Below, piece after piece: positions 2,849-52,440 of a stretch of DNA of 64,000 bases. The notes under the pieces were generated by a model. It was given only the letters and a program-made list of their open reading frames with translations. It was not told the DNA's origin and did no database searches. This DNA comes from an uncultured Bacilli bacterium (GTDB taxonomy: Bacteria; Bacillota_I; Bacilli_A; RF39; UBA660). Where the stretch lies: contig CANQSQ010000005.1 in assembly GCA_947626565.1 (NCBI GenBank), positions 6,462-70,461 of the forward strand, given 5' to 3'. How positions within the stretch are numbered: the stretch's first letter is position 1; each line of letters begins with the position of its first letter. The position numbers and the translations under genes are program-made.

Positions 2849-5803
2849 ATGTATTTAAAAGAGATAGTAGCAAGTGGATTTAAATCTTTTGCAGATAAAA
2901 TTGATATAAAACTGGATGGAAAGACAACTTGTATAGTAGGTCCTAATGGTTCAGGTAAAAGTAATGTAGTGGATGCTGTTAGATGGGTTTTAGGAGAACA
3001 ATCAGTTAAATCGCTTCGAGGCGAAGGTTCAATGAGCGATGTTATTTTTTCAGGTAGTAAAAGTAGAAATCCTTTGAATGTGGCTTCAGTAGAACTTATA
3101 TTTGATAATAATGATCATTATTTAAATGTACCCTATGTTGAGATATCAATAAAAAGAAGAGTATATAGAAGTGGTGAAAATGAGTACTATTTAAATAATG
3201 AAAAATGTCGGTTAAAAGATATTACTAATTTACTTTTGGATACAGGTATGGCTAGAGAGTCATTTAATATTATTTCCCAAGGAGAAGTAGAGAGAATATT
3301 AAGTAATTCGGCTAATGATAGACGAATTATTTTTGAAGAAGCTTCAGGTATTTTAAAATATAAAAGACGAAAAGAAGAAGCTTTAAAGAAGTTAGATCGA
3401 ACTCATAATAATATTGATAGGGTTAATGATATTATAAAAGAGTTGGAAATGCAGGTTGGTCCATTAAAGGAACAAAGTGAAAAAGCCCAGGAATATTTAG
3501 AAAATAAAAAAGGCTTAGATAAGTATGAAGTAGCTTTATTAGCATATGATATTGAGAATTTGAATGCTATTTTAGACCAGACAAAAAGACAGAAGGAACA
3601 TATAGATGAAGAAATAGTTACGTTACAGAATACAAGTAGTAATAATGATGCTATTTATATGCAAAATAGTACTAAATTAGAAAAATTAGAGTTAGAGAAG
3701 AATGATTTAAATAAACAATTGTTAGAAGTAACGGAAGAAGTAGAAAAAATTAATGGGGAAAGAAAGCTTTTAAAAGAAAGAAGTAAGACAACTAAGGAAG
3801 AGGATGAAGTAAAAGAAAATATTAGAGAATTATTAGATGCTAAGGCTAAATTAGAAAGAAATATTGTTGTTTTAGAAGAAGAAGTAAAAAGTGTAAGTAA
3901 AGAAATAGTAAATCAGGGCGAAAAAATTAGAGTTAAAGAAGAAGAGCTAAAAAGCATTAAAATGACTAGACGGATGCTTAATAATGACTATGCTGAACAT
4001 GATCAAAATATTGTTTCGATGGAACATAAAATTGGTAATTTAAAGAATGAAATAGAACAAGGAACGGATATGCCTAATAGTGTTAGGAAAGTGCTAAAAG
4101 AAACTAGTTTAGAAGGTATTCATAATACTATAGGTAATATTTTAACTATTGATCAGGAATATATAAAGGCTTTAGAGGTAGCTATTAGTGCGAATAAGAA
4201 CTTTATTATAACAACTAATGAAGAGGCAGCTAAAGGAGCTATTAACTTTTTAAAAGATAACCATTATGGACGAGCAACTTTTTTTCCAATGAATGTTATT
4301 AAAGAAAGATACATAGATTATGAGAGCTTAAATATTTTAAAAAATAGTAGTGATTTTATTGGGGTTTTGAGTGATTTAGTTTCTTATAATAATAAATATG
4401 AAAATATTGTTAAGAATCAATTAGGAATTGTTGTAGTAGCAACTAATATTGATAGTGCTATTAGACTTTCACATATGATTAAGGCTCGATATAAAATAGT
4501 TACTTTAGATGGTGAAGTTGTCAATGTGGGTGGTTCATTAGTAGGTGGTTCAATTAATTCTTCTAAAAGTGTTGTTTCTTTAAAACAAGAGGTTAAACAT
4601 TTAGAGGCTAAAAAAGAGCTTTATCAAAAGGAACTAGAAGAAATTCAAAAGGAGTTACAGGAAGTAAATAATAATATTGCTAAAACGGAAGAAGATTTCT
4701 TTGTATTGACCAAGGAAGAAGTACACTTAAAAGAAGTGTTAGAAAGTAAAAAGAACGAGTTAAAGGAATTAGAACAAAATAAAGAAGAAGTAAAGCAAGA
4801 ATATGAATCCTTAGAAGTTATAAAGAGTAATTCTTTTAATGAGAAAGAAGAAGAGTTAATTAATTTATTTCATGAAAAGAGTGCTACTAAAGAACAAATA
4901 CAAGTAAAAATGAATTCAATTAGTAAAGAGATTGATGAATTAAAAGAGGCCATAGAAAAGGCTCAGGCTTTAGAAAAAGTAAAAAATAGTAAACTTCGAA
5001 CTTTGGAAAAACAAGCTCGAGATTTGGAAATTGAAATTAATAGAGCTGATGTAAAGATAGATAATATGTTAAATACTTTGAGTGTAGATTATGAACTTAC
5101 GTTTTCTAAAGCTAAAAGTGATTATAAATTAGATATTGAACCGGATGAGGCTAGAAATAAGGTAAATACTTATCGAGCTAATATTAAAAGAATTGGTATG
5201 GTTAATATTGATGCTATAGAAGAGTATGAAAGAGTTAATACACGGTATGTTTTTTTGAATAATCAAAGAGAAGATTTATTAAAGGCTGAAGATACGTTAT
5301 TAGAAATTATGAATGAAATGGATGACGTCATGAAAGAAGAGTTCTTTAATACATTTATGAATATTAAAGAAGAATTTAAAAAAGTATTTAAAGAATTATT
5401 TGGGGGCGGAAATGCCGATTTAAAAATGACAGATCCAGATAATTTATTGACGACAGGAATTGAGATAGTTGCTTCACCTCCAGGTAAGAAGTTAACGACT
5501 ATTTCCTTGTTGTCTGGAGGAGAGAAAACGTTAACGGCTATTTCGTTATTATTTGCTATTCTTAATGTTAGAACAGTACCATTTTGTTTGTTTGATGAGG
5601 TTGAAGCGGCATTAGATGAAGCTAATGTAGCCCGCTTTGGTAAATATTTAGAGCATTATCGAGATAAGACTCAGTTCTTAATTATTACGCATAAAAAGAA
5701 AACAATGGAGTATGCTAAAACATTGTATGGAATAACAATGCAAGAATCAGGGGTATCAAAGTTAGTAAGTGTAAAATTAGAAGATCATGCCGAAGTAGTG
5801 TAA
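2849..5803 (+). CDS. smc: Chromosome segregation protein SMC (984 aa, short-arm form)
   Basis: It has a Walker A (GPNGSGKSNVVDA), long coiled-coil regions, a hinge (GRATFFP), the signature motif LSGGEKTLTAISLLFA and a Walker B (FCLFDEVEAALD). Confidence 0.95.
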   Translation: MYLKEIVASGFKSFADKIDIKLDGKTTCIVGPNGSGKSNVVDAVRWVLGEQSVKSLRGEGSMSDVIFSGSKSRNPLNVASVELIFDNNDHYLNVPYVEISIKRRVYRSGENEYYLNNEKCRLKDITNLLLDTGMARESFNIISQGEVERILSNSANDRRIIFEEASGILKYKRRKEEALKKLDRTHNNIDRVNDIIKELEMQVGPLKEQSEKAQEYLENKKGLDKYEVALLAYDIENLNAILDQTKRQKEHIDEEIVTLQNTSSNNDAIYMQNSTKLEKLELEKNDLNKQLLEVTEEVEKINGERKLLKERSKTTKEEDEVKENIRELLDAKAKLERNIVVLEEEVKSVSKEIVNQGEKIRVKEEELKSIKMTRRMLNNDYAEHDQNIVSMEHKIGNLKNEIEQGTDMPNSVRKVLKETSLEGIHNTIGNILTIDQEYIKALEVAISANKNFIITTNEEAAKGAINFLKDNHYGRATFFPMNVIKERYIDYESLNILKNSSDFIGVLSDLVSYNNKYENIVKNQLGIVVVATNIDSAIRLSHMIKARYKIVTLDGEVVNVGGSLVGGSINSSKSVVSLKQEVKHLEAKKELYQKELEEIQKELQEVNNNIAKTEEDFFVLTKEEVHLKEVLESKKNELKELEQNKEEVKQEYESLEVIKSNSFNEKEEELINLFHEKSATKEQIQVKMNSISKEIDELKEAIEKAQALEKVKNSKLRTLEKQARDLEIEINRADVKIDNMLNTLSVDYELTFSKAKSDYKLDIEPDEARNKVNTYRANIKRIGMVNIDAIEEYERVNTRYVFLNNQREDLLKAEDTLLEIMNEMDDVMKEEFFNTFMNIKEEFKKVFKELFGGGNADLKMTDPDNLLTTGIEIVASPPGKKLTTISLLSGGEKTLTAISLLFAILNVRTVPFCLFDEVEAALDEANVARFGKYLEHYRDKTQFLIITHKKKTMEYAKTLYGITMQESGVSKLVSVKLEDHAEVV

Positions 5804-16819: not shown

Positions 16820-17039
16820 AGTGGAGAAGAAATACATTGATAAAAGGACATGATAGATTAAAAGTAATTTTAAAAGAGAATTCGTGGCTGGTGAAAACGA
16901 AGAAATTAATTAATTTATTACTCCCTTTTTAGTAGAATTAGGAAACTAATTCCGGTAAAACCGTTATCTAATTAAGATAAAGTAAGGATGGTACCGTGCA
17001 ATCTGCACTCCTATATAGAGATATATAGGATTTTTTTTT
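16820..17039 (+). promoter_or_regulatory. T-box riboswitch leader (probably Thr-specific) ending in an intrinsic terminator
   Basis: The T-box core aaggatGGTACCGTGc lies at 16984-16998. A stem-I AG-bulge and distal-loop-like segment agagaattcgtggctGGTGaAAacgaa is present. The terminator stem is cctatata/tatatagg (17010-17029) followed by T9. thrS is the third downstream gene. The 5' boundary is approximate. Confidence 0.75.
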
Positions 17040-18196: not shown

Positions 18197-19975
18197 ATGA
18201 TTATGATGATAAATATAAAAGAAGATGAAAAGTTAAGTGTATTAAACCATTCATGTGCACACTTATTGGCTCAAGCCGTAAAACATTTGTATCCTCAAGC
18301 TATGTTTTGGGTAGGACCAGTAATAGAAGAAGGATTTTATTATGATATAGATTTAGGAGATGTCGTAATAAAAGAAGAGGATTTAGAAAAAATTGAAAAG
18401 GAAATGAAAAAGATTAGTAAAGATGGCAAAAGAATAGTACGTCATGAAATTACTAAGAAAGAAGCCTTAGAACAATTTAAGGATGATCCTTATAAGATAG
18501 ATTTAATACAGAGAATGGATGAGAAGGAGCAAGTTATTTCGTGCTATTGTCAAGGTGATTTTACGGACCTTTGTCGAGGACCTCATGTTGCGAGTGTTAA
18601 AGAATTAAAATATTTTAAATTAATTAAATTTAGTGGAGCTTATTGGAAAGGCGATGCTAAAAATAAGATGTTGCAAAGAATTTATGGAGTTTGTTTTACC
18701 AACCAAGAAGATTTAGATAATTATTTGCATGAATTAGAAGAAGCTAAGTTAAGAGATCATCGTAAAATAGGTAAAGAACAAGAATTGTTTATGTTACATG
18801 AGTTAGTTGGTTCAGGTATGCCTTTATGGTTACCAAATGGAGCTTTGATTAGAAAACAATTGGAAAACTATATTTATGAAAAAGAACAAGAATTAGGATA
18901 TAATCATGTTTATACTCCATGTGTTGGAACAGTAGATTTGTATAAGACATCTGGACATTGGGACCATTATAAAGAAAATATGTTTCCAATGATGAAAGTT
19001 GATGAAGAAGAATTTGTACTTCGACCAATGAATTGTCCACATCATATGTTAATTTATAAAAATAAAATGCATTCTTATCGTGATTTACCAATTAGAATAG
19101 GAGAGTTTGCAACTGATTTTAGATATGAAGCTAGTGGAGCTGTTAAAGGATTAGAACGAGTAAGGGCAATGTGTCAAAATGATGCGCATTTGTTTGTACG
19201 ACCTGATCAAATTGGGGAAGAATTTAAAAAAGTAGTTAATTTAATATTAGATGTATATAGAGACTTTGGAATTAAAGATTATAAGTTTAGATTATCATTA
19301 AGAGATAAAGAAGATAAAGAAAAATATTTTGATGATGATGAAATGTGGAATGAAGCTGAAGCTAAGTTAAGAGAAGTATTGAACGATTTAGGAGTTGAAT
19401 ATTTTGAGGCTATAGGGGAAGCAGCTTTCTATGGACCTAAATTAGATGTAGAAGTAAAACCTGCTGTAGGTCCAGAAGTTACTTTGTCAACATGTCAGTT
19501 AGATTTCTTACTACCAAGAAGATTTGATTTAAGTTATATTGATAATAAAGGTGAAAAGCAAATACCAGTAGTTATTCATAGAGCTATTTTTGGAACTTTT
19601 GATAGATTTACGGCCTTTTTGATTGAAGAAACAAAGGGAGCTTTTCCAACATGGCTTGCTCCTGTACAAGTAAAGGTTATTCCTGTCAATCCAGAATTTC
19701 AAGGTGACTATGCAAAAGAGATTACTGATATATTGAAGAAAGAAAAAATAAGAGCCGAGTTAGACGATAGAAATGAAAAATTGGGTTATCGTTTAAGAGA
19801 GGCTCAAACGGGAAAAGTACCTTATACTTTGATACTGGGAGATAATGAGAAAAATGATCAAACAATAAGTTATCGATTATTTGGACAAAAGGATACAACG
19901 ACACTTTCTAAAGAAGAATTTATTAAATTATTAAAAGAAGAAATAAATACGAAAGCCTTAAGAAAAAATGATTAA
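18197..19975 (+). CDS. thrS: Threonyl-tRNA synthetase lacking the N-terminal TGS domain
   Basis: The editing-domain motifs [11 protein letters not shown] and CRGPHV occur near the N-terminus. A class II catalytic core (FRLSLRD, QLDF) and an anticodon-binding domain follow. Alternative in-frame ATG starts lie at 18203 and 18206. Confidence 0.95.
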
Positions 19976-40515: not shown

Positions 40516-42417
40516 ATGGCCCTAAAATATGATGAGTCATCTATAAAAATATTAGAAGGATTAGAAGCAGTTAGAAAAAGACCAGGTATGTATATTGGTT
40601 CAACCGATAAACGTGGTTTACATCACCTAGTATGGGAAATAGTTGATAATTCTATCGATGAAGCTATTAATGGTTTTGGTGATTATATCAAAATAACACT
40701 TCATAAAGATAAATCGGTAAGTGTAGAAGATCATGGACGAGGATTGCCAACAGGAATGCATGCTTCAGGTCGGTCAACACCTGAAGTTATATTTACGGTT
40801 TTACATGCAGGTGGTAAATTCGAAAGCGAAGGATATAAGGTATCAGGTGGATTACATGGAGTTGGTTCTAGTGTAGTTAATGCCTTGTCAAAATGGATGG
40901 AAGTTACCATTAAGCATAATAAAGAAGAATATTATATTCGTTTTGAAAACGGGGGAGAAGTTGCAGTACCATTAAAGAAAATAGGAACAACTAATAAATC
41001 AGGAACAATAGTTAGATTTTTACCTGATGATGAGATATTTGCTACAACTAATTTTTCATATACAACAATATGTGAAAGAATGCAGGAATCAGCTTTTTTA
41101 TTAAAAGGAATTACTATTGAAGTAGTTGATGAAGAAGACGAAAGAGATGCTAAATTTCATTATGAAAGAGGAATAGAAGAATTTGTTGAAGAGTTAAATA
41201 AAGGAAAAGAAACACTACATAAAGTATTAGCAATTGTTGGTGAAAAAGAGAAAATTGAAGTAGAAATTGCGATGCAATATACTGATACTTATAATGAAAA
41301 TATTGTTAGTTTTGTTAATAATGTTAAGACAATAGATGGTGGTTCTCATGAGGTTGGTTTTAAAACAGCTTTGACACGGGTTTTTAATGATTATGCTAAA
41401 AGTAATGGTTTTGTAAAAGAAAAAGATAAGGCCTTTGAAGGTAGCGATGTTCGTGAAGGCTTAACGGCAGTTATTAGTTTAAAAATACCAGAGGGAATTT
41501 TACAATTTGAAGGACAAACAAAAGGTAAACTTGGAACGCCAGCGGCTAAGACTGTAGTAGAAAATATTGTTAATGAACAAATGCGGGTATATTTAGAGGA
41601 AAATAAGGCTATCGCAACCGAAATAATAAATAAATCACTTCGTAGTAAAGTAGCTAGAGAAGCAGCTAGAAAAGCTCGTGAAGAAGCTAGGAAGGGAAAT
41701 AAGAAAAATAATAAAGAAAGATCCCTTTCAGGAAAATTAGCTCCTGCGCAAAGTAAAGATAGAGAAAAAAAAGAATTGTTTTTAGTCGAAGGAGATTCAG
41801 CAGGTGGTTCAGCTAAACAAGGTCGAGATCGAAAATATCAAGCTATCTTGCCTTTACGTGGTAAAGTGTTGAATACGGAAAAAACCAAAGAAGATGAAAT
41901 TTTAAAAAATGAAGAAATAAATACAATGATTTATACAATTGGAGCAGGATATGGTTCTAATTTTGATATAAAAGATTGCGAGTATAGTAAAGTTATTATC
42001 ATGAGTGATGCTGATGAAGATGGTGGACATATTCAATGTTTATTATTGACATTTTTTTATCGGTATATGAAACCTTTAATTGAAGATGGAAGATTATTTG
42101 TAGCTTTACCGCCTTTATTTAAAATACAAAGTGGAAAAGAAATAGACTATGCTTATACAGTAGAAGAGATGCAAGATAAAGCTAAAGGACGTAAATGTGA
42201 AATTCAAAGATATAAAGGTCTTGGTGAGATGAATGCCGATCAATTGTGTGAAACTACTATGAAACCAGGAAGTAGAACGTTAATTAGAGTAAATATTGAA
42301 GATGCTCAATTAGCGGAGAAGAGAGTATCAATTCTAATGGGTGATGATGTACCTCCACGTAAAGAATGGATTGAAGAGAATGTTGAATTTTCTCTAGAAG
42401 ATGATTATGAAATATAA
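40516..42417 (+). CDS. parE: Type IIA topoisomerase subunit B, most likely topoisomerase IV ParE
   Basis: It has a GHKL ATPase (LEAVRKRPGMYIGS, GGLHGVG), a Toprim domain (ELFLVEGDSAGGSAKQGRDR, IMSDADEDGGHI) and lies adjacent to the A subunit. I chose ParE over GyrB by inference from its partner, which lacks a GyrA box. Confidence 0.8.
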   Translation: MALKYDESSIKILEGLEAVRKRPGMYIGSTDKRGLHHLVWEIVDNSIDEAINGFGDYIKITLHKDKSVSVEDHGRGLPTGMHASGRSTPEVIFTVLHAGGKFESEGYKVSGGLHGVGSSVVNALSKWMEVTIKHNKEEYYIRFENGGEVAVPLKKIGTTNKSGTIVRFLPDDEIFATTNFSYTTICERMQESAFLLKGITIEVVDEEDERDAKFHYERGIEEFVEELNKGKETLHKVLAIVGEKEKIEVEIAMQYTDTYNENIVSFVNNVKTIDGGSHEVGFKTALTRVFNDYAKSNGFVKEKDKAFEGSDVREGLTAVISLKIPEGILQFEGQTKGKLGTPAAKTVVENIVNEQMRVYLEENKAIATEIINKSLRSKVAREAARKAREEARKGNKKNNKERSLSGKLAPAQSKDREKKELFLVEGDSAGGSAKQGRDRKYQAILPLRGKVLNTEKTKEDEILKNEEINTMIYTIGAGYGSNFDIKDCEYSKVIIMSDADEDGGHIQCLLLTFFYRYMKPLIEDGRLFVALPPLFKIQSGKEIDYAYTVEEMQDKAKGRKCEIQRYKGLGEMNADQLCETTMKPGSRTLIRVNIEDAQLAEKRVSILMGDDVPPRKEWIEENVEFSLEDDYEI

Positions 42418-42434: not shown

Positions 42435-45026
42435 ATGCCAAAGAAGAAAACAGAAACAGAAGAAATAATTGAAAAAATATTCGATTATACTTTAGAAGAC
42501 ATAATGGGAGAAAGATTTGGAAGTTATTCTAAGTATATAATTCAAGATCGAGCTATTCCAGATGCTAGAGATGGATTAAAACCTGTTCAAAGACGTATTT
42601 TGTATTCCATGCATAAAGAGAAAAATACGTATGATAGAGGATATCGAAAAAGTGCTAAAACAGTTGGAGATGTTATAGGTAATTACCATCCTCATGGGGA
42701 TACATCAATATATGATGCTATGGTAAGAATGAGTCAACCTTGGAAAACAAGACTTCCTTATATTGATATGCATGGTAATAATGGTTCAATTGATGGTGAT
42801 AGTCCAGCAGCTTATCGTTATACGGAAGCTAGGTTGTCTAAGATATCAAATGAAATGTTAAGAGATATTGATAAGGATACAGTTGAGTTTGCTCCAAACT
42901 TTGATGATACTACAACTGAACCAACTGTGTTGCCAGCAAGATTTCCAGCTTTACTTGTGTATGGGGCTCAAGGAATTTCGGCAGGATATGCGACTAATAT
43001 TCCTCCACATAATTTAAATGAAGTTATTGATGCAACTATTCATCGAATTGATAATCCAAATTGTAGTTTAGATACTTTGATGAAATATGTTAAAGGACCT
43101 GATTTTCCAACGGGAGGAATAGTTGAAGGTTTAGCAGGTATTAAAGAGGCTTATGAAACAGGTCGAGGAAAGATTATTGTTAAAAGCAAATATGTAATTG
43201 AAGAAGGGAAAAGTCAAAATTCTATTGTAATTACCGAAATACCATTTGAAGTTAATAAGGCTTTAATGGTAAAGAAAATTGATGATATTCGTATTGATAA
43301 GAAAATTGAGGGTATTATTGAAGTAAGAGATGAATCGGCTGCGGATATTAGAGTGGTAATTGATGTTAAGAAAAATGCTAATATTGATTTAATTATTAAT
43401 TACTTATTAAAAAATACAGATATGCAAATAAGTTATAACTTTAATGTAGTATCGATTGTTAATAGAAGACCTAAATTATTAGGTTTAGCCGCAGCCTTAG
43501 ATGCTTTTATTGCTCATCAAAAAGAAGTCGTAAAAAGAAGAACAGAATTTGATTTAAAACATGCTAAAGCAAGATTCCATATAGTTGAAGGTTTAATTAA
43601 ATGTATTTCTATACTTGATGAAGTTATTAAAGTAATACGAGCTTCTAAAAATAAGATGGATGCTAAAGAAAATTTAGTAAAAGAGTTTGCTTTTTCAGAG
43701 GAACAAGCTGAGGCTATTGTTACTTTACAATTATATAGATTAACAAATACCGATGTAGTTGCTTTGCAAAATGAATTAGAGTCTTTAGAAAAAATTATTA
43801 ATGGTCTTACTGCTATTTTAGGTAGTGAAGAGGTATTAAAATCAGTAATGAAAAAAGATTTACGAGATGTTAAGAAAGAGTATGAAACACCACGTCTTAC
43901 AGAAATAAAAGATGAAATTACAGAGATAAAGATAGATACTGAGGCATTGATACCAAAAGAAGACGTAGTAGTTATGATTACTAAAGATGGCTATATTAAG
44001 AGAACGTCATTTAGGAGTTATAGTGCTTCTAATACAGAAGATTCAGTTATTAAAGAGAATGATTATGTTATTGGTTTGTATGAGATGAATACAACAGATA
44101 CTTTATTAGTATTTACAACGGGTGGTAATTATTTACATATCCCTGTTCATATTATTCCTGATTTAAAATGGAAAGATATGCCAAAACATGTAAGTAATAT
44201 TATTGAGTTGCCTAAGGAAGATAGTATTGTTGCTGCTATACCGGCTTATGATTTTGAAACAGATAAAAATGTAATTATAGTGACGAAAAATGGTATGATT
44301 AAACGTTCTAAGTTAAAAGATTTTAAACTTCTTCGTTATAATAAAGCTACATCATGTATGAAGTTAAAAGATGAGGATGAGTTAATTGAAGCATTTGTTG
44401 AAGAAAAAGATTGTCTTTTTCTAACAACGAACTCAGGTTATGGGTTAACGTTTAAAGTTGATGAAGTACCATTAGTAGGAGTAAAAGCTTCTGGAGTAAA
44501 AGCTATGAAATTAAAAGATGATTATTTAGTTTCAGTTAATAATTTTGCTTATGAGCAAGATGAGTTTATTAGTATTATTACTAATAAAGGTACTGGTAAG
44601 CGAGTACGACTACAAGAGTTTGAATTGTCTTCTAGAACTAGACGAGGTCTACAAGTAATAAGAGAAGTAAAATCAAATCCAAGTGAAGTTATAAAGACAT
44701 TTATAGTAGAGTCAAAAAATCATATTGGAGTTAAGAATGGAGAAATTGAAATACTTAAATTAACAGAATTATCAATATGTGATCGCTATTCACTAGGTAA
44801 TCAAATATCAAAACATAAACTGCAAACAGCTTTCTTGGTTGCTAATTTAGTAATGCCAAGTAGGGAACAAGCAACAATAATAACGGAAGAAAAAGATATA
44901 AAAAGTCTAGAAGAGCCGGTTATTATAGAGTCTAAACCAGTTTTAAAGAAAGATAAAATTTCTCTAAAAGAAATAGATGATAGACTTATGACAATAGATG
45001 ATTTTATAAATAGTAATGAAGATTAG
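42435..45026 (+). CDS. parC: Type IIA topoisomerase subunit A, most likely topoisomerase IV ParC
   Basis: It has typical GyrA/ParC motifs (RDGLKPVQRRILY, GNYHPHGD, and AAYRYTEARL carrying the catalytic Tyr). I found no QRRGGKG-type GyrA box in the C-terminal domain. Confidence 0.8.
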   Translation: MPKKKTETEEIIEKIFDYTLEDIMGERFGSYSKYIIQDRAIPDARDGLKPVQRRILYSMHKEKNTYDRGYRKSAKTVGDVIGNYHPHGDTSIYDAMVRMSQPWKTRLPYIDMHGNNGSIDGDSPAAYRYTEARLSKISNEMLRDIDKDTVEFAPNFDDTTTEPTVLPARFPALLVYGAQGISAGYATNIPPHNLNEVIDATIHRIDNPNCSLDTLMKYVKGPDFPTGGIVEGLAGIKEAYETGRGKIIVKSKYVIEEGKSQNSIVITEIPFEVNKALMVKKIDDIRIDKKIEGIIEVRDESAADIRVVIDVKKNANIDLIINYLLKNTDMQISYNFNVVSIVNRRPKLLGLAAALDAFIAHQKEVVKRRTEFDLKHAKARFHIVEGLIKCISILDEVIKVIRASKNKMDAKENLVKEFAFSEEQAEAIVTLQLYRLTNTDVVALQNELESLEKIINGLTAILGSEEVLKSVMKKDLRDVKKEYETPRLTEIKDEITEIKIDTEALIPKEDVVVMITKDGYIKRTSFRSYSASNTEDSVIKENDYVIGLYEMNTTDTLLVFTTGGNYLHIPVHIIPDLKWKDMPKHVSNIIELPKEDSIVAAIPAYDFETDKNVIIVTKNGMIKRSKLKDFKLLRYNKATSCMKLKDEDELIEAFVEEKDCLFLTTNSGYGLTFKVDEVPLVGVKASGVKAMKLKDDYLVSVNNFAYEQDEFISIITNKGTGKRVRLQEFELSSRTRRGLQVIREVKSNPSEVIKTFIVESKNHIGVKNGEIEILKLTELSICDRYSLGNQISKHKLQTAFLVANLVMPSREQATIITEEKDIKSLEEPVIIESKPVLKKDKISLKEIDDRLMTIDDFINSNED

Positions 45027-45037
45027 ATAATGATAAA

Positions 45038-45073
45038 AAGCATTTTTAGAGAGTGATAGAAATGCTTTTTTTT
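45038..45073 (+). terminator. Intrinsic terminator after parC
   Basis: The stem aaagcattt/aaatgcttt has a 13-nt loop and is followed by a T-run. Confidence 0.75.
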
Positions 45074-45117
45074 GAGAGATAATTAAATAGGACTAAGTTA
45101 GTGATAAAATAATAAAA

Positions 45118-45146
45118 TTGACAAAATTTATTATTTGGTGTAAAAT
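45118..45146 (+). promoter_or_regulatory. Near-consensus sigma-A promoter of the leuS leader
   Basis: The -35 is TTGACA (45118-45123), the spacer is 17 bp, and the -10 is TAAAAT (45141-45146). Confidence 0.65.
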
Positions 45147-45171
45147 TGTATGTGCAAAGGAGAGATAGACT

Positions 45172-45258
45172 ATGAAAAATATTCGTAATAATGCCTTATA
45201 TTTAGACTTATTATTAAACCGATTATGTAGTAATGGGTCTATTTTGAGTGCAATATAA
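45172..45258 (+). CDS. Candidate Leu-rich leader peptide (28 aa) of a leuS transcription attenuator
   Basis: My hand translation is MKNIRNNALYLDLLLNRLCSNGSILSAI. An RBS (AAGGAGAG) lies 7 nt upstream. Six of codons 9-18 are TTA (Leu). The ORF overlaps alternative pairing segments 1 and 2 described in the findings. Confidence 0.6.
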   Translation: MKNIRNNALYLDLLLNRLCSNGSILSAI

Positions 45259-45281
45259 GATATAAAAATGTGTAATTAAAT

Positions 45282-45322
45282 AGAGTCAATACTACAAAGT
45301 TAAAGTATTGACTCTATTTTTT
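45282..45322 (+). terminator. Attenuator terminator immediately upstream of leuS
   Basis: A perfect 12-bp stem agagtcaatact (45282-45293) / agtattgactct (45304-45315) is followed by aTTTTTT. It lies 22 nt before the leuS ATG. Confidence 0.85.
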
Positions 45323-45344
45323 GATTAAGAAAGAAGGAAATGAA

Positions 45345-47759
45345 ATGTATAATTTTAAAGAAGTAGAAAAGAAATGGCAAGATAAATGGTTTAAGGAAAA
45401 AAGTTTTAAAGCGATAGATTTTCATCCTACTAAACCTAAATATTATGTTCTTTATGAGTTTTATAATATAAGTGGAAATCTACATATGGGTCATCTTAAG
45501 GGTACTATTCCGGCTGATGCTTTGGCAAGAATGAAGAGATTGCAGGGATATAATGTATTGTTTCCAATAGGTGGTGATTCATTTGGATTGCCAGCTGAAA
45601 ATGCGGCTATTAAGACAGGTATTAATCCAGAAGATTTTGTAAAAGAAGGAATGCAAAGAGTATTGGAGCAATCCAAAAGATTGGGACTTTCATTTGATTG
45701 GGATAGGACTTTTGCTACTAGTGATGCTGATTATTATAAATGGACTCAATGGATATTTTTGCAATTTTTGAAAGAAGGAAAAGCCTATAAAGAAAAAGGA
45801 GTAGTTAATTATTGTCCAAATTGTAAAACAGTTCTTTCTAATGAAGATAGTCAGGGGGGAGAATGTGATAGATGTCATGGTCCAGTAGTACAGGAAGAAA
45901 GATGGGTATGGTTCTTAAAAATGAAAGAGTATTCGGAAAAACTACTTGGAAATATTGAAAGAATTAATATGAATGAAAACCTAAAAGAACTACAAAGAAA
46001 TTGGATTGGTAAAAGTGAAGGTATGCAAGTAACTTTTGACATAGTAGATGAGGAAAATAATAAAGTGTCAACGGTAGATATTTTTACAACTTGTATTGAA
46101 ACAATTTATGGGATAACTTTTTTGGTTATGGCTCCAGAACATAAGTTTATTAATGAATTTAAAGATAAAATAAAAAATATGGATGAAGTAGATGCCTATA
46201 AGAAAAAGACATCTTATAGAAGTGAACTTGATAGAATGGCTGATCAAAAAGAAAAGACAGGTTGTATTGTCAAGGGACTTTATGCGGTAAATCCTGTTAA
46301 TAATAAAAAAGTACCAATATATTTGGCTGATTTTGTTCTAGTTAATTATGGAACAGGAGTAGTTATGGCAGTACCAGCCCATGACCAAAGAGATTATGAA
46401 TTTGCTAAAAAATTTGATATACCTATGATTCAAGTAATTGAAGGAGATATAGGAAAACAAGCTGTTGAAAAATATGATTATTTGAAGAAAAATAGTAAAT
46501 TGATGAATTCTTTAGAGTTTTCAGAAATGACTGTTAATGAGGCTAAAAAGAAGATAAGTGAAAAACTTATAAAGATGGGAATAGCTCAAAAGAAAATAAA
46601 TTATAAGATGCAAGATTGGTCTTTTAATAGACAAAGATATTGGGGAGAACCTTTTCCAGTAGTATTTTGTGATAAATGTGGAACAGTTGGAGTACCAGAA
46701 GATGAACTTCCAGTTATTTTGCCCAAAACAAATGATTATATGCCTAGTGGGAAGGGAGATTCTCCACTTTCAAAGATTGATGAATGGGTAAATTGCAAGT
46801 GTCCTAAATGTGGAGGTCCGGCAAAAAGAGAAACAGATACGATGCCTAACTGGGCTGGTTCTTCGTGGTATTGGTTAAGATATTGTGATCCGCATAATGA
46901 TAAAGCTCTAGCTGATTATGAAAAATTGAAATATTGGGGAAGTGTTGATTGCTACACTGGAGGAACTGAACATATTACAAGACATGTACTTTATGCTTTC
47001 TTTTGGCAAAACTTCCTTTATGAAATAGGAGCTGTACCTACTAGAGATCCTTTTATTAGGAAGATGGGTAGTGGTTTGATACTTGATGATACCGGTAAAA
47101 AGATGAGTAAGAGTTCTACAAACGGTGTTTCTCCTATGGAAGTTATAGAAAAATATGGTACAGATGTAGCAAGACTTCATGTTCACTTTCTATCGGCATA
47201 TGAAGATGATACGCCTTGGACTTATGAAGGTATAAATGGTATTACTAGTTTTATAGATAAAGTTTGGAATCTGCAAAATATGATAAAAGGTGAAGAAGTA
47301 TCTCAAGAACATATTTATGAAATTAATAATTTGATTAAAAAAGTGACCGAGGATATAGAAAATTTGAAACTTAATACTTGTATATCAGCCTTTATGAGTT
47401 TTATAAAGAAGGTTAAAGAAGATAAATTTATTACTAAAGAAGAACTTAGAATATTTTTGATTCTTTTAAATCCACTGGCGCCACATATTACAAGTGAAAT
47501 GTATGAAATTGTCTTTGACAAAAATATAATTGATGAAAAGTGGGTAGATTATGATTCTAAGTATTTGGTAAAAGATGAAATTAATCTTCCAATTCAAATA
47601 AATGGTAAGATGAAAAAAACGATAGCTGTTAGTCAAGAAATAACAGAAGATGAGTTGATAGAAAACATAAAAGAACAATATCCAGGTCTTATAGTTGGAG
47701 AAATAGTAAAAGTAATTTATGTTAAAGGAAAAATTGTAAATATTATTTGTAAAGGATAG
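45345..47759 (+). CDS. leuS: Leucyl-tRNA synthetase
   Basis: It has a HIGH motif (HMGHLKG), a KMSKS motif, a CP1 editing insertion and zinc-binding cysteines (CPNCKT...CDRCHG). The ATG at 45345 (MYNFKEVEKKWQ) is preferred over the TTG at 45321, which lies inside the terminator T-run. Confidence 0.95.
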   Translation: MYNFKEVEKKWQDKWFKEKSFKAIDFHPTKPKYYVLYEFYNISGNLHMGHLKGTIPADALARMKRLQGYNVLFPIGGDSFGLPAENAAIKTGINPEDFVKEGMQRVLEQSKRLGLSFDWDRTFATSDADYYKWTQWIFLQFLKEGKAYKEKGVVNYCPNCKTVLSNEDSQGGECDRCHGPVVQEERWVWFLKMKEYSEKLLGNIERINMNENLKELQRNWIGKSEGMQVTFDIVDEENNKVSTVDIFTTCIETIYGITFLVMAPEHKFINEFKDKIKNMDEVDAYKKKTSYRSELDRMADQKEKTGCIVKGLYAVNPVNNKKVPIYLADFVLVNYGTGVVMAVPAHDQRDYEFAKKFDIPMIQVIEGDIGKQAVEKYDYLKKNSKLMNSLEFSEMTVNEAKKKISEKLIKMGIAQKKINYKMQDWSFNRQRYWGEPFPVVFCDKCGTVGVPEDELPVILPKTNDYMPSGKGDSPLSKIDEWVNCKCPKCGGPAKRETDTMPNWAGSSWYWLRYCDPHNDKALADYEKLKYWGSVDCYTGGTEHITRHVLYAFFWQNFLYEIGAVPTRDPFIRKMGSGLILDDTGKKMSKSSTNGVSPMEVIEKYGTDVARLHVHFLSAYEDDTPWTYEGINGITSFIDKVWNLQNMIKGEEVSQEHIYEINNLIKKVTEDIENLKLNTCISAFMSFIKKVKEDKFITKEELRIFLILLNPLAPHITSEMYEIVFDKNIIDEKWVDYDSKYLVKDEINLPIQINGKMKKTIAVSQEITEDELIENIKEQYPGLIVGEIVKVIYVKGKIVNIICKG

Positions 47760-51920: not shown

Positions 51921-52440
51921 TGGCTTATATAAGGGAAGAAAAATAGAAGGATTCGATATAGATGGAACAAGACCTACTATGGATAGGGTTAAAGAAAGTT
52001 TATTTGCGATGATTCAGGATTATGTAAAAGATGGTGTAGTATTAGATTTATTTGCTGGTAGTGGTAATTTAGCAATTGAAGCTTTAAGTGAACAAGCTAA
52101 TTTTGCCTATTTAGTTGATAATAATAAAAAAGCAATTGAGATGATAAAAAAGAATATAAAAAATATTAATATTAATAATTGTGAAGTTATTTATAGTGAT
52201 TATAGACAGGCTTTGAAAAGTTTTACTAAAGGACAATTTGATGTTATATTTTTAGATCCTCCTTATAAAACAAATTTTATTGAAGAAAGTCTTAAAATAA
52301 TTGATGAAAGTAATTTACTTAAAGATAATGGGATAATTGTTTGTGAAAGTGATGGTTTGGATAAAATAGTTTATAGTGATCGATATAAAAGTTTTAAAGA
52401 AAAAAAATATGGCGATAAATGGGTAGTCATTTTGAAGTAA
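51907..52440 (+). CDS. rsmD: 16S rRNA (guanine966-N2)-methyltransferase RsmD
   Basis: It has a SAM-binding motif (VLDLFAGSGNLAIEALS) and a DPPY motif (IFLDPPYK). The ATG at 51907 gives the typical N-terminus MKVISGLYKGRKI. Confidence 0.88.
   Translation: MKVISGLYKGRKIEGFDIDGTRPTMDRVKESLFAMIQDYVKDGVVLDLFAGSGNLAIEALSEQANFAYLVDNNKKAIEMIKKNIKNININNCEVIYSDYRQALKSFTKGQFDVIFLDPPYKTNFIEESLKIIDESNLLKDNGIIVCESDGLDKIVYSDRYKSFKEKKYGDKWVVILK

What the first reader, a model, noticed from the sequence alone, without database searches (positions are those of the whole stretch)
45118..45344. Leucine leader-peptide transcription attenuator upstream of leuS instead of a T-box
A near-consensus promoter (TTGACA-17-TAAAAT) lies between parC and leuS. 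It drives a ~170-nt leader containing a 28-codon ORF with a good RBS. The peptide is MKNIRNNALYLDLLLNRLCSNGSILSAI, and 6 of codons 9-18 are TTA Leu.

Four segments form the classic mutually exclusive pairings:
- Segment 1 is agacttattatt (45204-45215) and sits on the Leu codon run.
- Segment 2 is agtaatgggtct (45229-45240) and lies inside the ORF, ending 16 nt upstream of its stop codon.
- Segment 3 is agagtcaatact (45282-45293).
- Segment 4 is agtattgactct (45304-45315) and is followed by aTTTTTT.

By hand pairing, 1:2 gives 12/12 pairs (3 G-U), 2:3 gives 10/12 pairs (1 G-U), and 3:4 gives 12/12 Watson-Crick pairs. A ribosome stalled on the Leu codons would mask segment 1 and free segment 2 to pair with segment 3 (antitermination). 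A ribosome that reaches the stop codon would mask segment 2 and let the 3:4 terminator form.

In Firmicutes, aminoacyl-tRNA synthetase genes are classically controlled by T-box riboswitches, as thrS is in this same window. Ribosome-mediated attenuation of a synthetase gene is known from E. coli pheST. A trp-style Leu attenuator on a Firmicute leuS would therefore be an unusual regulatory replacement. I found no T-box core (GGTGGTACCGCG-like) in this leader.
Basis: seen in the sequence. Interest (0 to 1): 0.7.

Follow-up and report, generated by a model that had tools for sequence, protein, structure and literature searches.

The report
Leucine leader-peptide attenuator before leuS
A short leucine-rich mini-gene and a switchable stop signal sit in front of the leucyl-tRNA synthetase gene of an uncultured gut bacterium and most likely raise synthetase production when charged leucine tRNA runs low: a classic mechanism in a new sequence family, in a group of bacteria that usually uses a T-box for this job.

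Summary

- **Translation.** The ORF stays in frame across indels (0 in-frame stops against 113 and 48 in the other frames). The Leu run is kept, including through synonymous TTA>CTA/CTT changes.
- **Terminator.** It shows 6 compensatory pairs.
- **Antiterminator.** It forms in all 26 aligned leaders when a ribosome is masked on the Leu run.
- **Not a T-box.** No T-box or Rfam leader model matches, although the same T-box model finds a T-box near thrS in this window and Leu (CUU) T-boxes before leuS operons of two relatives.

The mechanism is not new. Leu attenuators on leuS were predicted in Streptomyces, and leader peptides replacing T-boxes in Firmicutes were reported in 2010. This is a new member of a known kind. 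The same leader also precedes acyl-CoA ligase genes, which hints at a small Leu-charging regulon. Nothing has been tested experimentally.

The parts
45035..45073 (+). Intrinsic terminator of parC (context). It shows that the leader starts a separate transcription unit.
   Evidence: 14-bp hairpin AAAAGCAUUU.../...AAAUGCUUUU followed by U8, -13.1 kcal/mol. parC ends at 45026.
45118..45146 (+). Sigma-70-type promoter, TTGACA-17-TAAAAT. The predicted transcription start is near 45152-45154.
   Evidence: 11/12 match. TTGAC and the -10 box are conserved in the leaders of relatives. The start site is inferred, not shown.
45157..45162 (+). Shine-Dalgarno sequence (AAGGAG) of the leader ORF, 9 nt before the ATG.
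   Evidence: Read from the sequence. A GGAG/GAGG motif is conserved at the same place in the 26 aligned leaders.
45162..45171 (+). Segment 0: SD-AUG spacer GAGAUAGACU, complementary to GGGUCUAUUU in the 3' half of segment 2. This is an extra anti-antiterminator pairing.
   Evidence: Duplex -10.9 kcal/mol. The helix is 91.9% paired across 26 leaders, with A>G changes that keep pairing.
45172..45258 (+). Leader ORF, 28 codons: MKNIRNNALYLDLLLNRLCSNGSILSAI.
   Evidence: ORF listed. Homologous ORFs of 23-31 codons occur in all relatives. The ATG-to-core distance is 45, 48, 51 or 54 nt, always in frame. In-frame stops number 0, against 113 and 48 in the other two frames.
45196..45225 (+). Regulatory Leu-codon run: TTA at codons 9, 11, 13, 14, 15 and 18.
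   Evidence: Read from the sequence. Leu is 8.9% of codons in the window's long genes. Relatives carry LLLxLLL here, with synonymous TTA>CTA/CTT changes.
45203..45216 (+). Segment 1 (UAGACUUAUUAUUA). It pairs with 45228-45241 to form the 1:2 anti-antiterminator.
   Evidence: 14-bp stem in the minimum-energy fold, hairpin -12.2 kcal/mol, 92% of cells paired in 26 leaders.
45217..45243 (+). Conserved 27-nt core AACCGATTATGTAGTAATGGGTCTATT. It contains a local hairpin (45218-45238) and segment 2.
   Evidence: Only 2 substitutions in the six leaders found independently through LeuS, although it uses the minority codons AAC, CGA and GGG. The local hairpin is the RNAalifold consensus at -5.9 kcal/mol.
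45227..45243 (+). Segment 2 (GUAGUAAUGGGUCUAUU), the 5' strand of the antiterminator.
   Evidence: 15/17 pairs with 45279-45295, duplex -18.5 kcal/mol, shuffle P about 0.0006.
45279..45295 (+). Segment 3 (AAUAGAGUCAAUACUAC), shared by the antiterminator (with segment 2) and the terminator (with segment 4).
   Evidence: Segment 3 varies mainly at positions opposite G or U of segment 2, or at two constant mismatches. L045 has a compensatory G>U / C>A change.
45278..45322 (+). Intrinsic terminator: 16-bp stem (45278-45293 with 45304-45319), 10-nt loop, U6 at 45317-45322.
   Evidence: Hairpin -19.1 kcal/mol. Six pairs have compensatory changes and 94.8% of cells are paired in 26 leaders. RNAalifold predicts it as well.
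45345..47759 (+). leuS (leucine--tRNA ligase), the regulated gene. Its SD, GAAGGAA, is at 45333-45339.
   Evidence: TIGR00396 leuS_bact, 832 bits. Only 22 nt separate the terminator U-run from the ATG, so leuS must be transcribed by readthrough.

Best explanation
This is a classical ribosome-mediated (leader-peptide) transcription attenuator that couples leuS transcription to the supply of charged tRNA-Leu.

**Proposed sequence of events**
1. Transcription starts at the promoter at 45118-45146.
2. A ribosome loads on the 28-codon leader ORF while RNA polymerase is still transcribing the leader.
3. *Leu-tRNA plentiful:* the ribosome runs through to the stop codon or leaves. Segment 2 (45227-45243) is then covered by the ribosome or captured by one of its upstream partners. 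Those partners are the Leu-codon segment 1, the SD-AUG spacer, or the local ACCGAUUAU hairpin. The 16-bp terminator (45278-45322) forms and transcription stops 22 nt before leuS.
4. *Leu-tRNA scarce, for example because LeuRS activity is limiting:* the ribosome stalls on the TTA codons 9-15. It then covers segment 1 and the ACCGAUUAU strand but leaves segment 2 free. Segment 2 pairs with segment 3 (45279-45295) as soon as it is made. The terminator's 5' arm is sequestered, and polymerase reads into leuS.

**Shown in silico:** all the sequence parts, their conservation, the maintained reading frame, terminator covariation, and the mutually exclusive pairings.

**Inferred:** the transcription start, translation of the ORF, stalling, and the response to leucine.
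For: **Anatomy**
- Promoter, Shine-Dalgarno sequence, ORF, Leu run and terminator are all present.
- leuS has no room for its own promoter. Only 22 nt separate the U-run from the ATG.

**Comparative support.** 28 homologous leaders were found. Five came through LeuS homology and 23 through a DNA-pattern scan of metagenomes.
- *Translation.* The ATG and SD are conserved. Four different ATG-to-core distances occur, all multiples of 3. Stop triplets number 0 in frame, against 113 and 48 out of frame, over 440 codons.
- *Leu identity.* LLLxLLL is conserved. The first triplet lies outside the 1:2 stem and changes synonymously (TTA>CTA/CTT).
- *Terminator.* Six compensatory pairs, and 0 of 500 shuffles reach the observed covariation.
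- *Antiterminator.* 15/17 pairs with shuffle P = 0.0006. 86% of cells are paired across 26 leaders, with one compensatory double change.
- *Masked-ribosome folding.* With a ribosome masked on the Leu run and the 3' arm not yet transcribed, the antiterminator forms (13-15 pairs) in all 26 leaders.
- *Energies.* Duplex energies are ordered 1:2 -14.7, 2:3 -18.5, 3:4 -21.5 kcal/mol.

**Regulatory logic**
- Two relatives (L005, L037) carry Leu-specifier (CUU) T-boxes before their leuS operons. L005 branches next to the leader-bearing clade in the LeuS tree.
- The same leader family precedes other genes, so it behaves as a portable regulatory module.
Against: - There is no experimental evidence of any kind. 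Transcription start, translation of the ORF and the leucine response are all inferred.
- At equilibrium, with the ribosome masked, the full-length window leader still prefers the terminator (-27.4 kcal/mol, 0 antiterminator pairs). The model therefore relies on co-transcriptional kinetics, as classical attenuators do.
- Segment 2 is invariant, partly because the metagenome search pattern required it. The 1:2 and 2:3 helices therefore show almost no two-sided covariation. Most segment 3 changes are transitions opposite G or U, which keep pairing for chemical reasons alone.
- In the window, a ribosome at the stop codon (45256) would cover only the 3' end of segment 2. Termination in Leu-replete cells must then also rely on re-pairing of segment 2 with upstream partners.
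- The invariance of AACCGAUUAU, with minority codons, is only partly explained by the local hairpin.
Confidence: 0.85

Rival explanations
1. A degenerate or atypical T-box (or other tRNA-binding leader) that senses uncharged tRNA-Leu directly. On this reading the small ORF is incidental.
For: Synthetase genes in Firmicutes are usually under T-box control. The window has one T-box at 16828-17015. Relatives L005 and L037 have Leu T-boxes before leuS operons. The leader is of T-box-like length and contains UUA triplets and a UGGG.
Against: The Rfam T-box model gives no match in 44950-45450 even at E<=10. The same model scores 67-109 bits on the real T-boxes. There is no GGUGGUACCGCG-like core. 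The maintained frame and the absence of in-frame stops have no explanation under this model.
Confidence: 0.02
2. A protein-dependent or ligand-dependent attenuator. A trans-acting factor, for example LeuRS itself or another RNA-binding protein, would bind the invariant core AACCGAUUAUGUAGUAAUGGGUCUAUU and decide between terminator and antiterminator. Translation of the ORF would be irrelevant or secondary.
For: The 27-nt core is nearly invariant among species whose LeuS proteins differ by 20-33%. It uses the minority codons AAC (8%), CGA (13%) and GGG (7%). That points to selection on the RNA rather than the peptide. RNA-binding proteins, including E. coli ThrRS, are known to autoregulate (background cited in PMC2965389).
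Against: The core's invariance is largely accounted for by overlapping constraints. It must code, and it must pair with segment 1, segment 0, segment 3 and the local hairpin. The SD, the ATG, the frame across indels, the stop-free frame and the synonymous Leu changes outside the stems all point to translation as the sensor. The same leader precedes acyl-CoA ligase genes, which argues against LeuRS-specific autoregulation.
Confidence: 0.06
3. An independent small-protein gene, encoding a hydrophobic 28-aa peptide with its own function. Its terminator would be constitutively leaky, so leuS would be expressed by unregulated readthrough.
For: The peptide tail NRLCSNGSI is conserved. Hydrophobic Leu-rich micro-proteins exist.
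Against: Conservation is at the nucleotide level, including synonymous sites, not at the protein level. The N-terminal third is free to vary. A 15/17 antiterminator that overlaps the ORF and the terminator is unexpected by chance (P about 0.0006) and is conserved. The module recurs before unrelated genes.
Confidence: 0.05

Closest known systems
Classical attenuator upstream of leuS in Streptomyces (leader peptide leuL2, MRAVRLLLSEPR; PMC1262725, PMC8079986)
   Same: Same regulated gene (leuS). Same logic: a short ORF with a Leu run, then an antiterminator and a terminator followed by a U-tract.
   Different: Different phylum (Actinobacteria) and a leaderless 12-aa peptide. The peptides show no evident similarity. 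That leader has no counterpart of the 27-nt core, the SD-spacer pairing or the local hairpin. This is independent invention, not homology.
E. coli pheST attenuator (pheM leader peptide)
   Same: Ribosome-mediated attenuation of an aminoacyl-tRNA synthetase operon by a run of cognate codons. This gives feedback from tRNA charging to synthetase synthesis (my knowledge; cited as the paradigm in PMC1262725).
   Different: Proteobacterial, Phe rather than Leu, and an unrelated sequence. It was not compared by sequence here, beyond the absence of any Rfam leader match.
His leader peptide on the hisS paralogue and hisZ in Bacillus (Naville and Gautheret 2010, PMC2965389)
   Same: A 'regular' leader peptide in Firmicutes standing in for a T-box on a synthetase-family gene. 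Also a portable attenuator found on more than one gene.
   Different: His codons and different genes, in cultured Bacillus. Predicted from fewer sequences, and not homologous.
Leu/phe leader motif of Lactococcus lactis (Rfam RF01743; listed in PMC2864571)
   Same: A Firmicute leader family. From my own knowledge (the paper's table gives only name, taxon and accession), its short ORFs carry Leu or Phe runs before leucine biosynthesis genes or pheS.
   Different: No match of the window leader to this or any other Rfam leader model at E<=10. Different clade and different sequence.
E. coli leu operon leader (Rfam RF00512) and the S. aureus ilv-leu Leu-rich attenuator peptide (PMC5794164)
   Same: A Leu-codon run in a peptide of about 28 aa controls a downstream terminator. 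The S. aureus case is an experimentally supported Leu attenuator in a Firmicute.
   Different: Those regulate biosynthetic operons, not the synthetase. No sequence or structure match.
Leu-specific T-box riboswitch (Rfam RF00230)
   Same: Same physiological input (tRNA-Leu charging), the same output (antitermination) and the same target (leuS), as seen in relatives L005 and L037.
   Different: A T-box senses uncharged tRNA directly through a specifier codon and the T-box bulge. Here there is no T-box core and no covariance-model match, and sensing would go through a translating ribosome.

Membership tests
Classical ribosome-mediated (leader-peptide) transcription attenuator | Own promoter and a short ORF with a ribosome-binding site in the 5' leader of the regulated gene | tested here: met
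   Promoter 11/12, AAGGAG 9 nt before the ATG, 28-codon ORF. All are conserved in relatives.
Classical ribosome-mediated (leader-peptide) transcription attenuator | The ORF is maintained as a reading frame (evidence of translation) | tested here: met
   Four ATG-to-core distances, all multiples of 3. Stop triplets are 0 in frame against 113 and 48 out of frame in 26 leaders. Actual translation was not tested.
Classical ribosome-mediated (leader-peptide) transcription attenuator | Run of codons for the amino acid cognate to the regulated gene | tested here: met
   6 TTA Leu in codons 9-18, against 8.9% Leu genome-wide. LLLxLLL is conserved, with synonymous changes.
Classical ribosome-mediated (leader-peptide) transcription attenuator | Intrinsic terminator between the ORF and the regulated gene | tested here: met
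   16-bp stem plus U6, -19.1 kcal/mol. Six compensatory pairs.
Classical ribosome-mediated (leader-peptide) transcription attenuator | Antiterminator mutually exclusive with the terminator, and an anti-antiterminator that overlaps the regulatory codons | tested here: met
   2:3 at 15/17, P about 0.0006, conserved. It forms in all 26 leaders with a masked ribosome. 1:2 is a 14-bp stem on Leu codons 11-15.
Classical ribosome-mediated (leader-peptide) transcription attenuator | Readthrough responds to charging of the cognate tRNA | not testable with these tools
   Needs reporter fusions, in vitro coupled transcription-translation, or transcript 3'-end mapping.
T-box leader (RF00230) | Match to the T-box covariance model (Stem I with specifier loop, and a T-box antiterminator with the UGGN bulge) | tested here: not met
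   No T-box hit in 44950-45450 at E<=10. No GGUGGUACCGCG-like core. Positive controls score 67-109 bits.
Rfam leader-peptide families (Leu_leader RF00512, leu/phe leader RF01743 and others) | Sequence and structure similarity to the curated model | tested here: not met
   The only hits at E<=10 are generic hairpin and terminator look-alikes. Nothing in the whole window reaches a gathering score.

The most novel reading that the evidence does not exclude
The leader may be more than a leuS attenuator. It could be the signature of a small regulon driven by tRNA-Leu charging in an uncultured gut and rumen Bacillota clade.

The same module sits in front of AMP-forming acyl-CoA ligase genes, sometimes in tandem with a second Leu-run or Ile-rich leader. 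One of those contigs also carries a second ligase distantly similar to MbcS. This would fit a ligase that activates branched-chain acids such as isovalerate, to make or spare leucine when charged tRNA-Leu falls.

A second non-excluded reading concerns the near-invariant 27-nt core, with its minority codons AAC, CGA and GGG. It may carry an extra function, such as a programmed slow-decoding or pause site, a nascent-peptide effect, or a factor-binding site, layered on the classical switch.
Probability: 0.15. Interest if true: 0.6.

Novelty: new member of a known kind. Interest (0 to 1): 0.4.

Why it matters
- **A well-supported new example.** This is a comparatively validated case of a Firmicute-type bacterium controlling a synthetase gene with a leader peptide instead of a T-box. 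A T-box version sits on the branch next to the leader clade, so it documents a recent exchange of sensing systems at one gene.
- **A new family.** It defines a leader family that is absent from Rfam and could be used to annotate uncultured gut and rumen genomes.
- **A functional lead.** Its presence before acyl-CoA ligase genes gives a testable handle on their function in organisms that cannot yet be grown.
- **Limits.** It does not change the understanding of attenuation. The mechanism and even the target gene have precedents.

Tried and rejected
**Hypotheses rejected**
- *T-box.* Rejected by the covariance-model scans, with positive controls, and by a regex for the T-box core.
- *Other copies of the leader.* None in the window or in relatives L005-L080. 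An nhmmer profile of the 26 leaders found nothing beyond the known ones and a weak hit to a tandem element in L082. A scan for amino-acid-run ORFs found only 45172-45258.
- *Upstream long hairpin as a covarying structure.* This is the fold with N-terminal codons paired to CCGAUUAUGU and Asn codons paired to the Leu run. Its inner helices are only 70-77% paired and do not exceed shuffles. Only the outer SD-spacer helix (92% paired) was kept.

**Steps that led nowhere**
- The tool's terminator scan reports no terminator in 44000-46500. It was accepted on folding and covariation evidence instead.
- Looking up the source contig through the exact LeuS sequence failed, so the organism is known only from relatives' record titles.
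- A paper search for 'leu/phe leader' failed on syntax and then returned nothing useful. The family was confirmed only from the table in PMC2864571.
- The substrate of the co-regulated acyl-CoA ligase could not be assigned. Family and PDB matches were only generic.
Full report
**1.

The window is 28% G+C. parE (40516-42417) and parC (42435-45026) are followed by a clean intrinsic terminator at 45035-45073.

A promoter then follows: TTGACA-17-TAAAAT at 45118-45146. It matches 11 of 12 positions and is the best such site in 44000-46500.

Next come AAGGAG (45157-45162) and a 28-codon ORF at 45172-45258. The ORF encodes MKNIRNNALYLDLLLNRLCSNGSILSAI and has TTA Leu at codons 9, 11, 13-15 and 18.

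A 16-bp hairpin follows, with U6 at 45317-45322. The leuS ATG at 45345 is only 22 nt further on.

leuS is a full-length bacterial leucine--tRNA ligase (TIGR00396, 832 bits). With no room for a promoter of its own, it must be transcribed by readthrough of this terminator.

The leader folds far better than shuffles (-42 kcal/mol, z = -4.3).

**2. Relatives conserve the ORF and its Leu codons, not just the hairpin.**

A scan of one genome per species with LeuS returned 80 loci, all from uncultured gut or rumen Bacillota MAGs. Five of them have a homologous small ORF 80-180 nt upstream of leuS: L001-L004 (78-82% LeuS identity) and L045 (67%). An example is MKNVIVNNNNLLLALLLNRLCSNGSILSAI.

A metagenome scan with the conserved core CCGATTATNTAGTAATNGGTCT gave 23 more loci. 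All share the same architecture of promoter, SD, ORF and terminator.

In the 26 distinct full-length leaders (alignment A2):
- The ATG is invariant.
- The ATG-to-core distance takes four values (45, 48, 51, 54 nt), all multiples of three.
- Stop triplets between the ATG and the core number 0 in frame, against 113 and 48 in the other two frames.
- The peptide's N-terminal third varies freely. The LLLxLLL block is kept.
- The first Leu triplet lies outside the 1:2 stem. It changes synonymously (TTA to CTA or CTT) in several leaders.

Leu makes up 8.9% of codons in the window's long genes. Taken together, this is the signature of a translated ORF selected for its Leu codons.

**3. The RNA switch.**

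*Terminator.* It is well supported: 94.8% of cells are paired, six pairs have compensatory changes, and no shuffle reaches the observed covariation. RNAalifold recovers it independently.

GUAGUAAUGGGUCUAUU (45227-45243) pairs with AAUAGAGUCAAUACUAC (45279-45295) at 15 of 17 positions. This explains why GUAGUA and UACUAC are both invariant.
- Only 3 of 5000 dinucleotide shuffles of the leader reach 15/17. Only four 17-mers on the + strand of the 64-kb window do so, and two of them are segments 2 and 4.
- Across relatives, 86% of cells pair. Segment 3 varies mainly opposite G or U of segment 2 (keeping wobble pairs) or at the two constant mismatches. The one leader with a change at the first base of segment 2 (L045, G>U) has the compensating C>A in segment 3.

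*Competitors for segment 2.* There are three upstream partners:
- The Leu-codon segment 1 (45203-45216): a 14-bp stem, 92% paired.
- The SD-AUG spacer GAGAUAGACU (45162-45171): 92% paired in relatives.
- A local hairpin ACCGAUUAU/GUAAUGGGU, which is the RNAalifold consensus.

*Energies.* Duplex energies in the window run 0:2 -10.9, 1:2 -14.7, 2:3 -18.5 and 3:4 -21.5 kcal/mol.

*Masked-ribosome folding.* I blocked the region a ribosome stalled at the end of the Leu run would cover and folded the transcript up to the terminator loop. The antiterminator then forms with 13-15 pairs in all 26 leaders. With the complete transcript at equilibrium the terminator usually wins. Like the classical attenuators, the switch therefore has to be kinetic.

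**4. Geometry (inferred).**

- *Stalled ribosome.* With its A site on codons 13-15 (45208-45216), a ribosome should protect the RNA to about 45220-45229. That covers segment 1 and the ACCGAUUAU strand and leaves segment 2 free.
- *Ribosome at the stop codon.* At 45256 it covers only the 3' end of segment 2 in the window. In several relatives the stop codon follows segment 2 directly. Termination in Leu-replete cells therefore probably also relies on segment 2 re-pairing with its upstream partners after the ribosome passes or leaves.

**5. It is not a T-box, and this lineage does use T-boxes.**

- No Rfam family reaches its gathering score in the window.
- In 44950-45450, nothing except hairpin look-alikes appears even at E<=10.
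- The same T-box model finds a T-box at 16828-17015 (67 bits, E = 2e-12). It lies upstream of a three-gene operon that ends with thrS (18197-19975), and its likely specifier is ACU.
- The model also finds Leu T-boxes (specifier CUU) upstream of an uncharacterised ORF of about 120 aa followed by leuS, in relatives L005 and L037.
- In a neighbour-joining tree of LeuS, 15 of the 16 leader-bearing leuS genes form one clade. Next to it branch L007 (no leader) and the T-box-bearing L005. L045 is an outlier.
- Most other relatives have leuS close behind another gene. None of those scanned with Rfam has a T-box or this leader.

The leader peptide and the T-box are thus alternative solutions at the same gene in neighbouring lineages.

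**6. The module is portable.**

- About half of the metagenome hits precede leuS.
- Nine precede genes for AMP-binding acyl-CoA ligases of 520-545 aa: L084, L086, L087, L091, L092, L093, L097, L101 and L103.
- One (L082) precedes a truncated ORF with no family match.
- Two (L081, L089) precede a 308-aa protein with a weak HipA_C match.
- Upstream of several ligase genes and of the L082 ORF there is a second, different leader in tandem, with its own short ORF. Examples are MNNIHIFIINNLYLNLLLRL in L082 and MKTMFKNTNLLLLLKRSINNRFFLRS in L103, each followed by a second hairpin and T-run.
- The ligase substrate cannot be assigned from family or PDB matches.

**7. Comparison with what is known.**

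- Classical Leu attenuators upstream of leuS were predicted in Streptomyces in 2005 (PMC1262725). They were annotated as leuL2 in S. lividans (PMC8079986).
- The 2005 paper stated that no Firmicute synthetase gene was known to use classical attenuation.
- The leu/phe leader of Lactococcus is in Rfam as RF01743 (PMC2864571).
- S. aureus ilv-leu is controlled by a Leu-rich attenuator peptide (PMC5794164).

The element here works like these. It has no sequence or structure match to any curated model. It is a new member of a known kind, not a new mechanism.

**8. What remains open.**

- Everything functional is inferred: the transcription start, translation, stalling and the leucine response.
- The near-invariance of AACCGAUUAU, which uses the minority codons AAC (8%) and CGA (13%), is only partly explained by the local hairpin. 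GGG (7%) lies in the part of segment 2 that pairs with segments 0, 1 and 3.
- The source organism could not be named.
- The link between leucine and the co-regulated acyl-CoA ligases is a hypothesis.

Noticed in passing
window 16828-17015 (+): A T-box leader scores 67 bits, below Rfam's gathering score of 93 but at E = 2e-12. Its likely specifier is ACU (Thr). It sits upstream of a three-gene operon: a 173-aa ORF with no family match, a metal-dependent hydrolase, and thrS at 18197-19975. It is the only Rfam hit in the whole 64-kb window.
   Followed up: partly
L084:985-2799, L086:4236-6101, L091, L092, L093, L097, L101, L103: The same Leu leader family precedes AMP-binding acyl-CoA ligase genes of 520-545 aa (best NCBIfam match PRK12583, fatty acid CoA ligase family). 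In L091 a second ligase distantly similar to MbcS follows. The substrate is unknown. A role in activating branched-chain acids is only a guess.
   Followed up: partly
L082:6019-6230, L103:2523-2710, L093:10026-10215, L086:4406-4533: Tandem second leaders of a different sequence class lie between the first terminator and the downstream gene. That gene is an acyl-CoA ligase in L086, L093 and L103, and a truncated ORF with no family match in L082. Each has its own short ORF. Examples are MNNIHIFIINNLYLNLLLRL, MKTMFKNTNLLLLLKRSINNRFFLRS and, in L086, the Ile-rich MKNIKVILSIIIDFMNDRYILCLYS. In L082, L093 and L103 a second hairpin and T-run is visible.
   Followed up: partly
L081 (- strand, leader at 527-697) and L089:1478-2597: The same leader precedes a 308-aa protein with only a weak HipA_C-like match (27 bits, below the cut-off). 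In L089 it is followed by two paralogous 229-aa ORFs that look hydrophobic and have no family match.
   Followed up: no
L005:3406-3589 and L037:3421-3611: Leu-specific T-boxes (specifier CUU; 96 and 109 bits) lie upstream of an uncharacterised ORF of about 120 aa, which is immediately followed by leuS. The small ORF has no Pfam match.
   Followed up: partly
window 45162-45171 with 45234-45243: The spacer between the Shine-Dalgarno sequence and the ATG of the leader ORF (AAUAGAC) is conserved. It is complementary to the 3' half of segment 2 and resembles segment 3. It could act as a decoy that enforces termination when the leader is not translated.
   Followed up: partly
L036:4001-7195 and L055:4001-7495: The LeuS match spans about 3.2 and 3.5 kb in these two relatives, against about 2.4 kb elsewhere. 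This suggests an insertion of 0.8-1.1 kb within leuS (an intein, an intron or an extra domain).
   Followed up: no
window 4344-4360 and 52036-52052 (+): Two other 17-mers in the window can pair at 15 or more of 17 positions with terminator segment 3. Both lie inside long ORFs and are probably chance matches in AT-rich sequence.
   Followed up: no
window 42435-45026: ParC is 863 aa, but the Gram-positive ParC profile ends at residue 749. That leaves a C-terminal tail of about 115 aa with no match to the profile.
   Followed up: no
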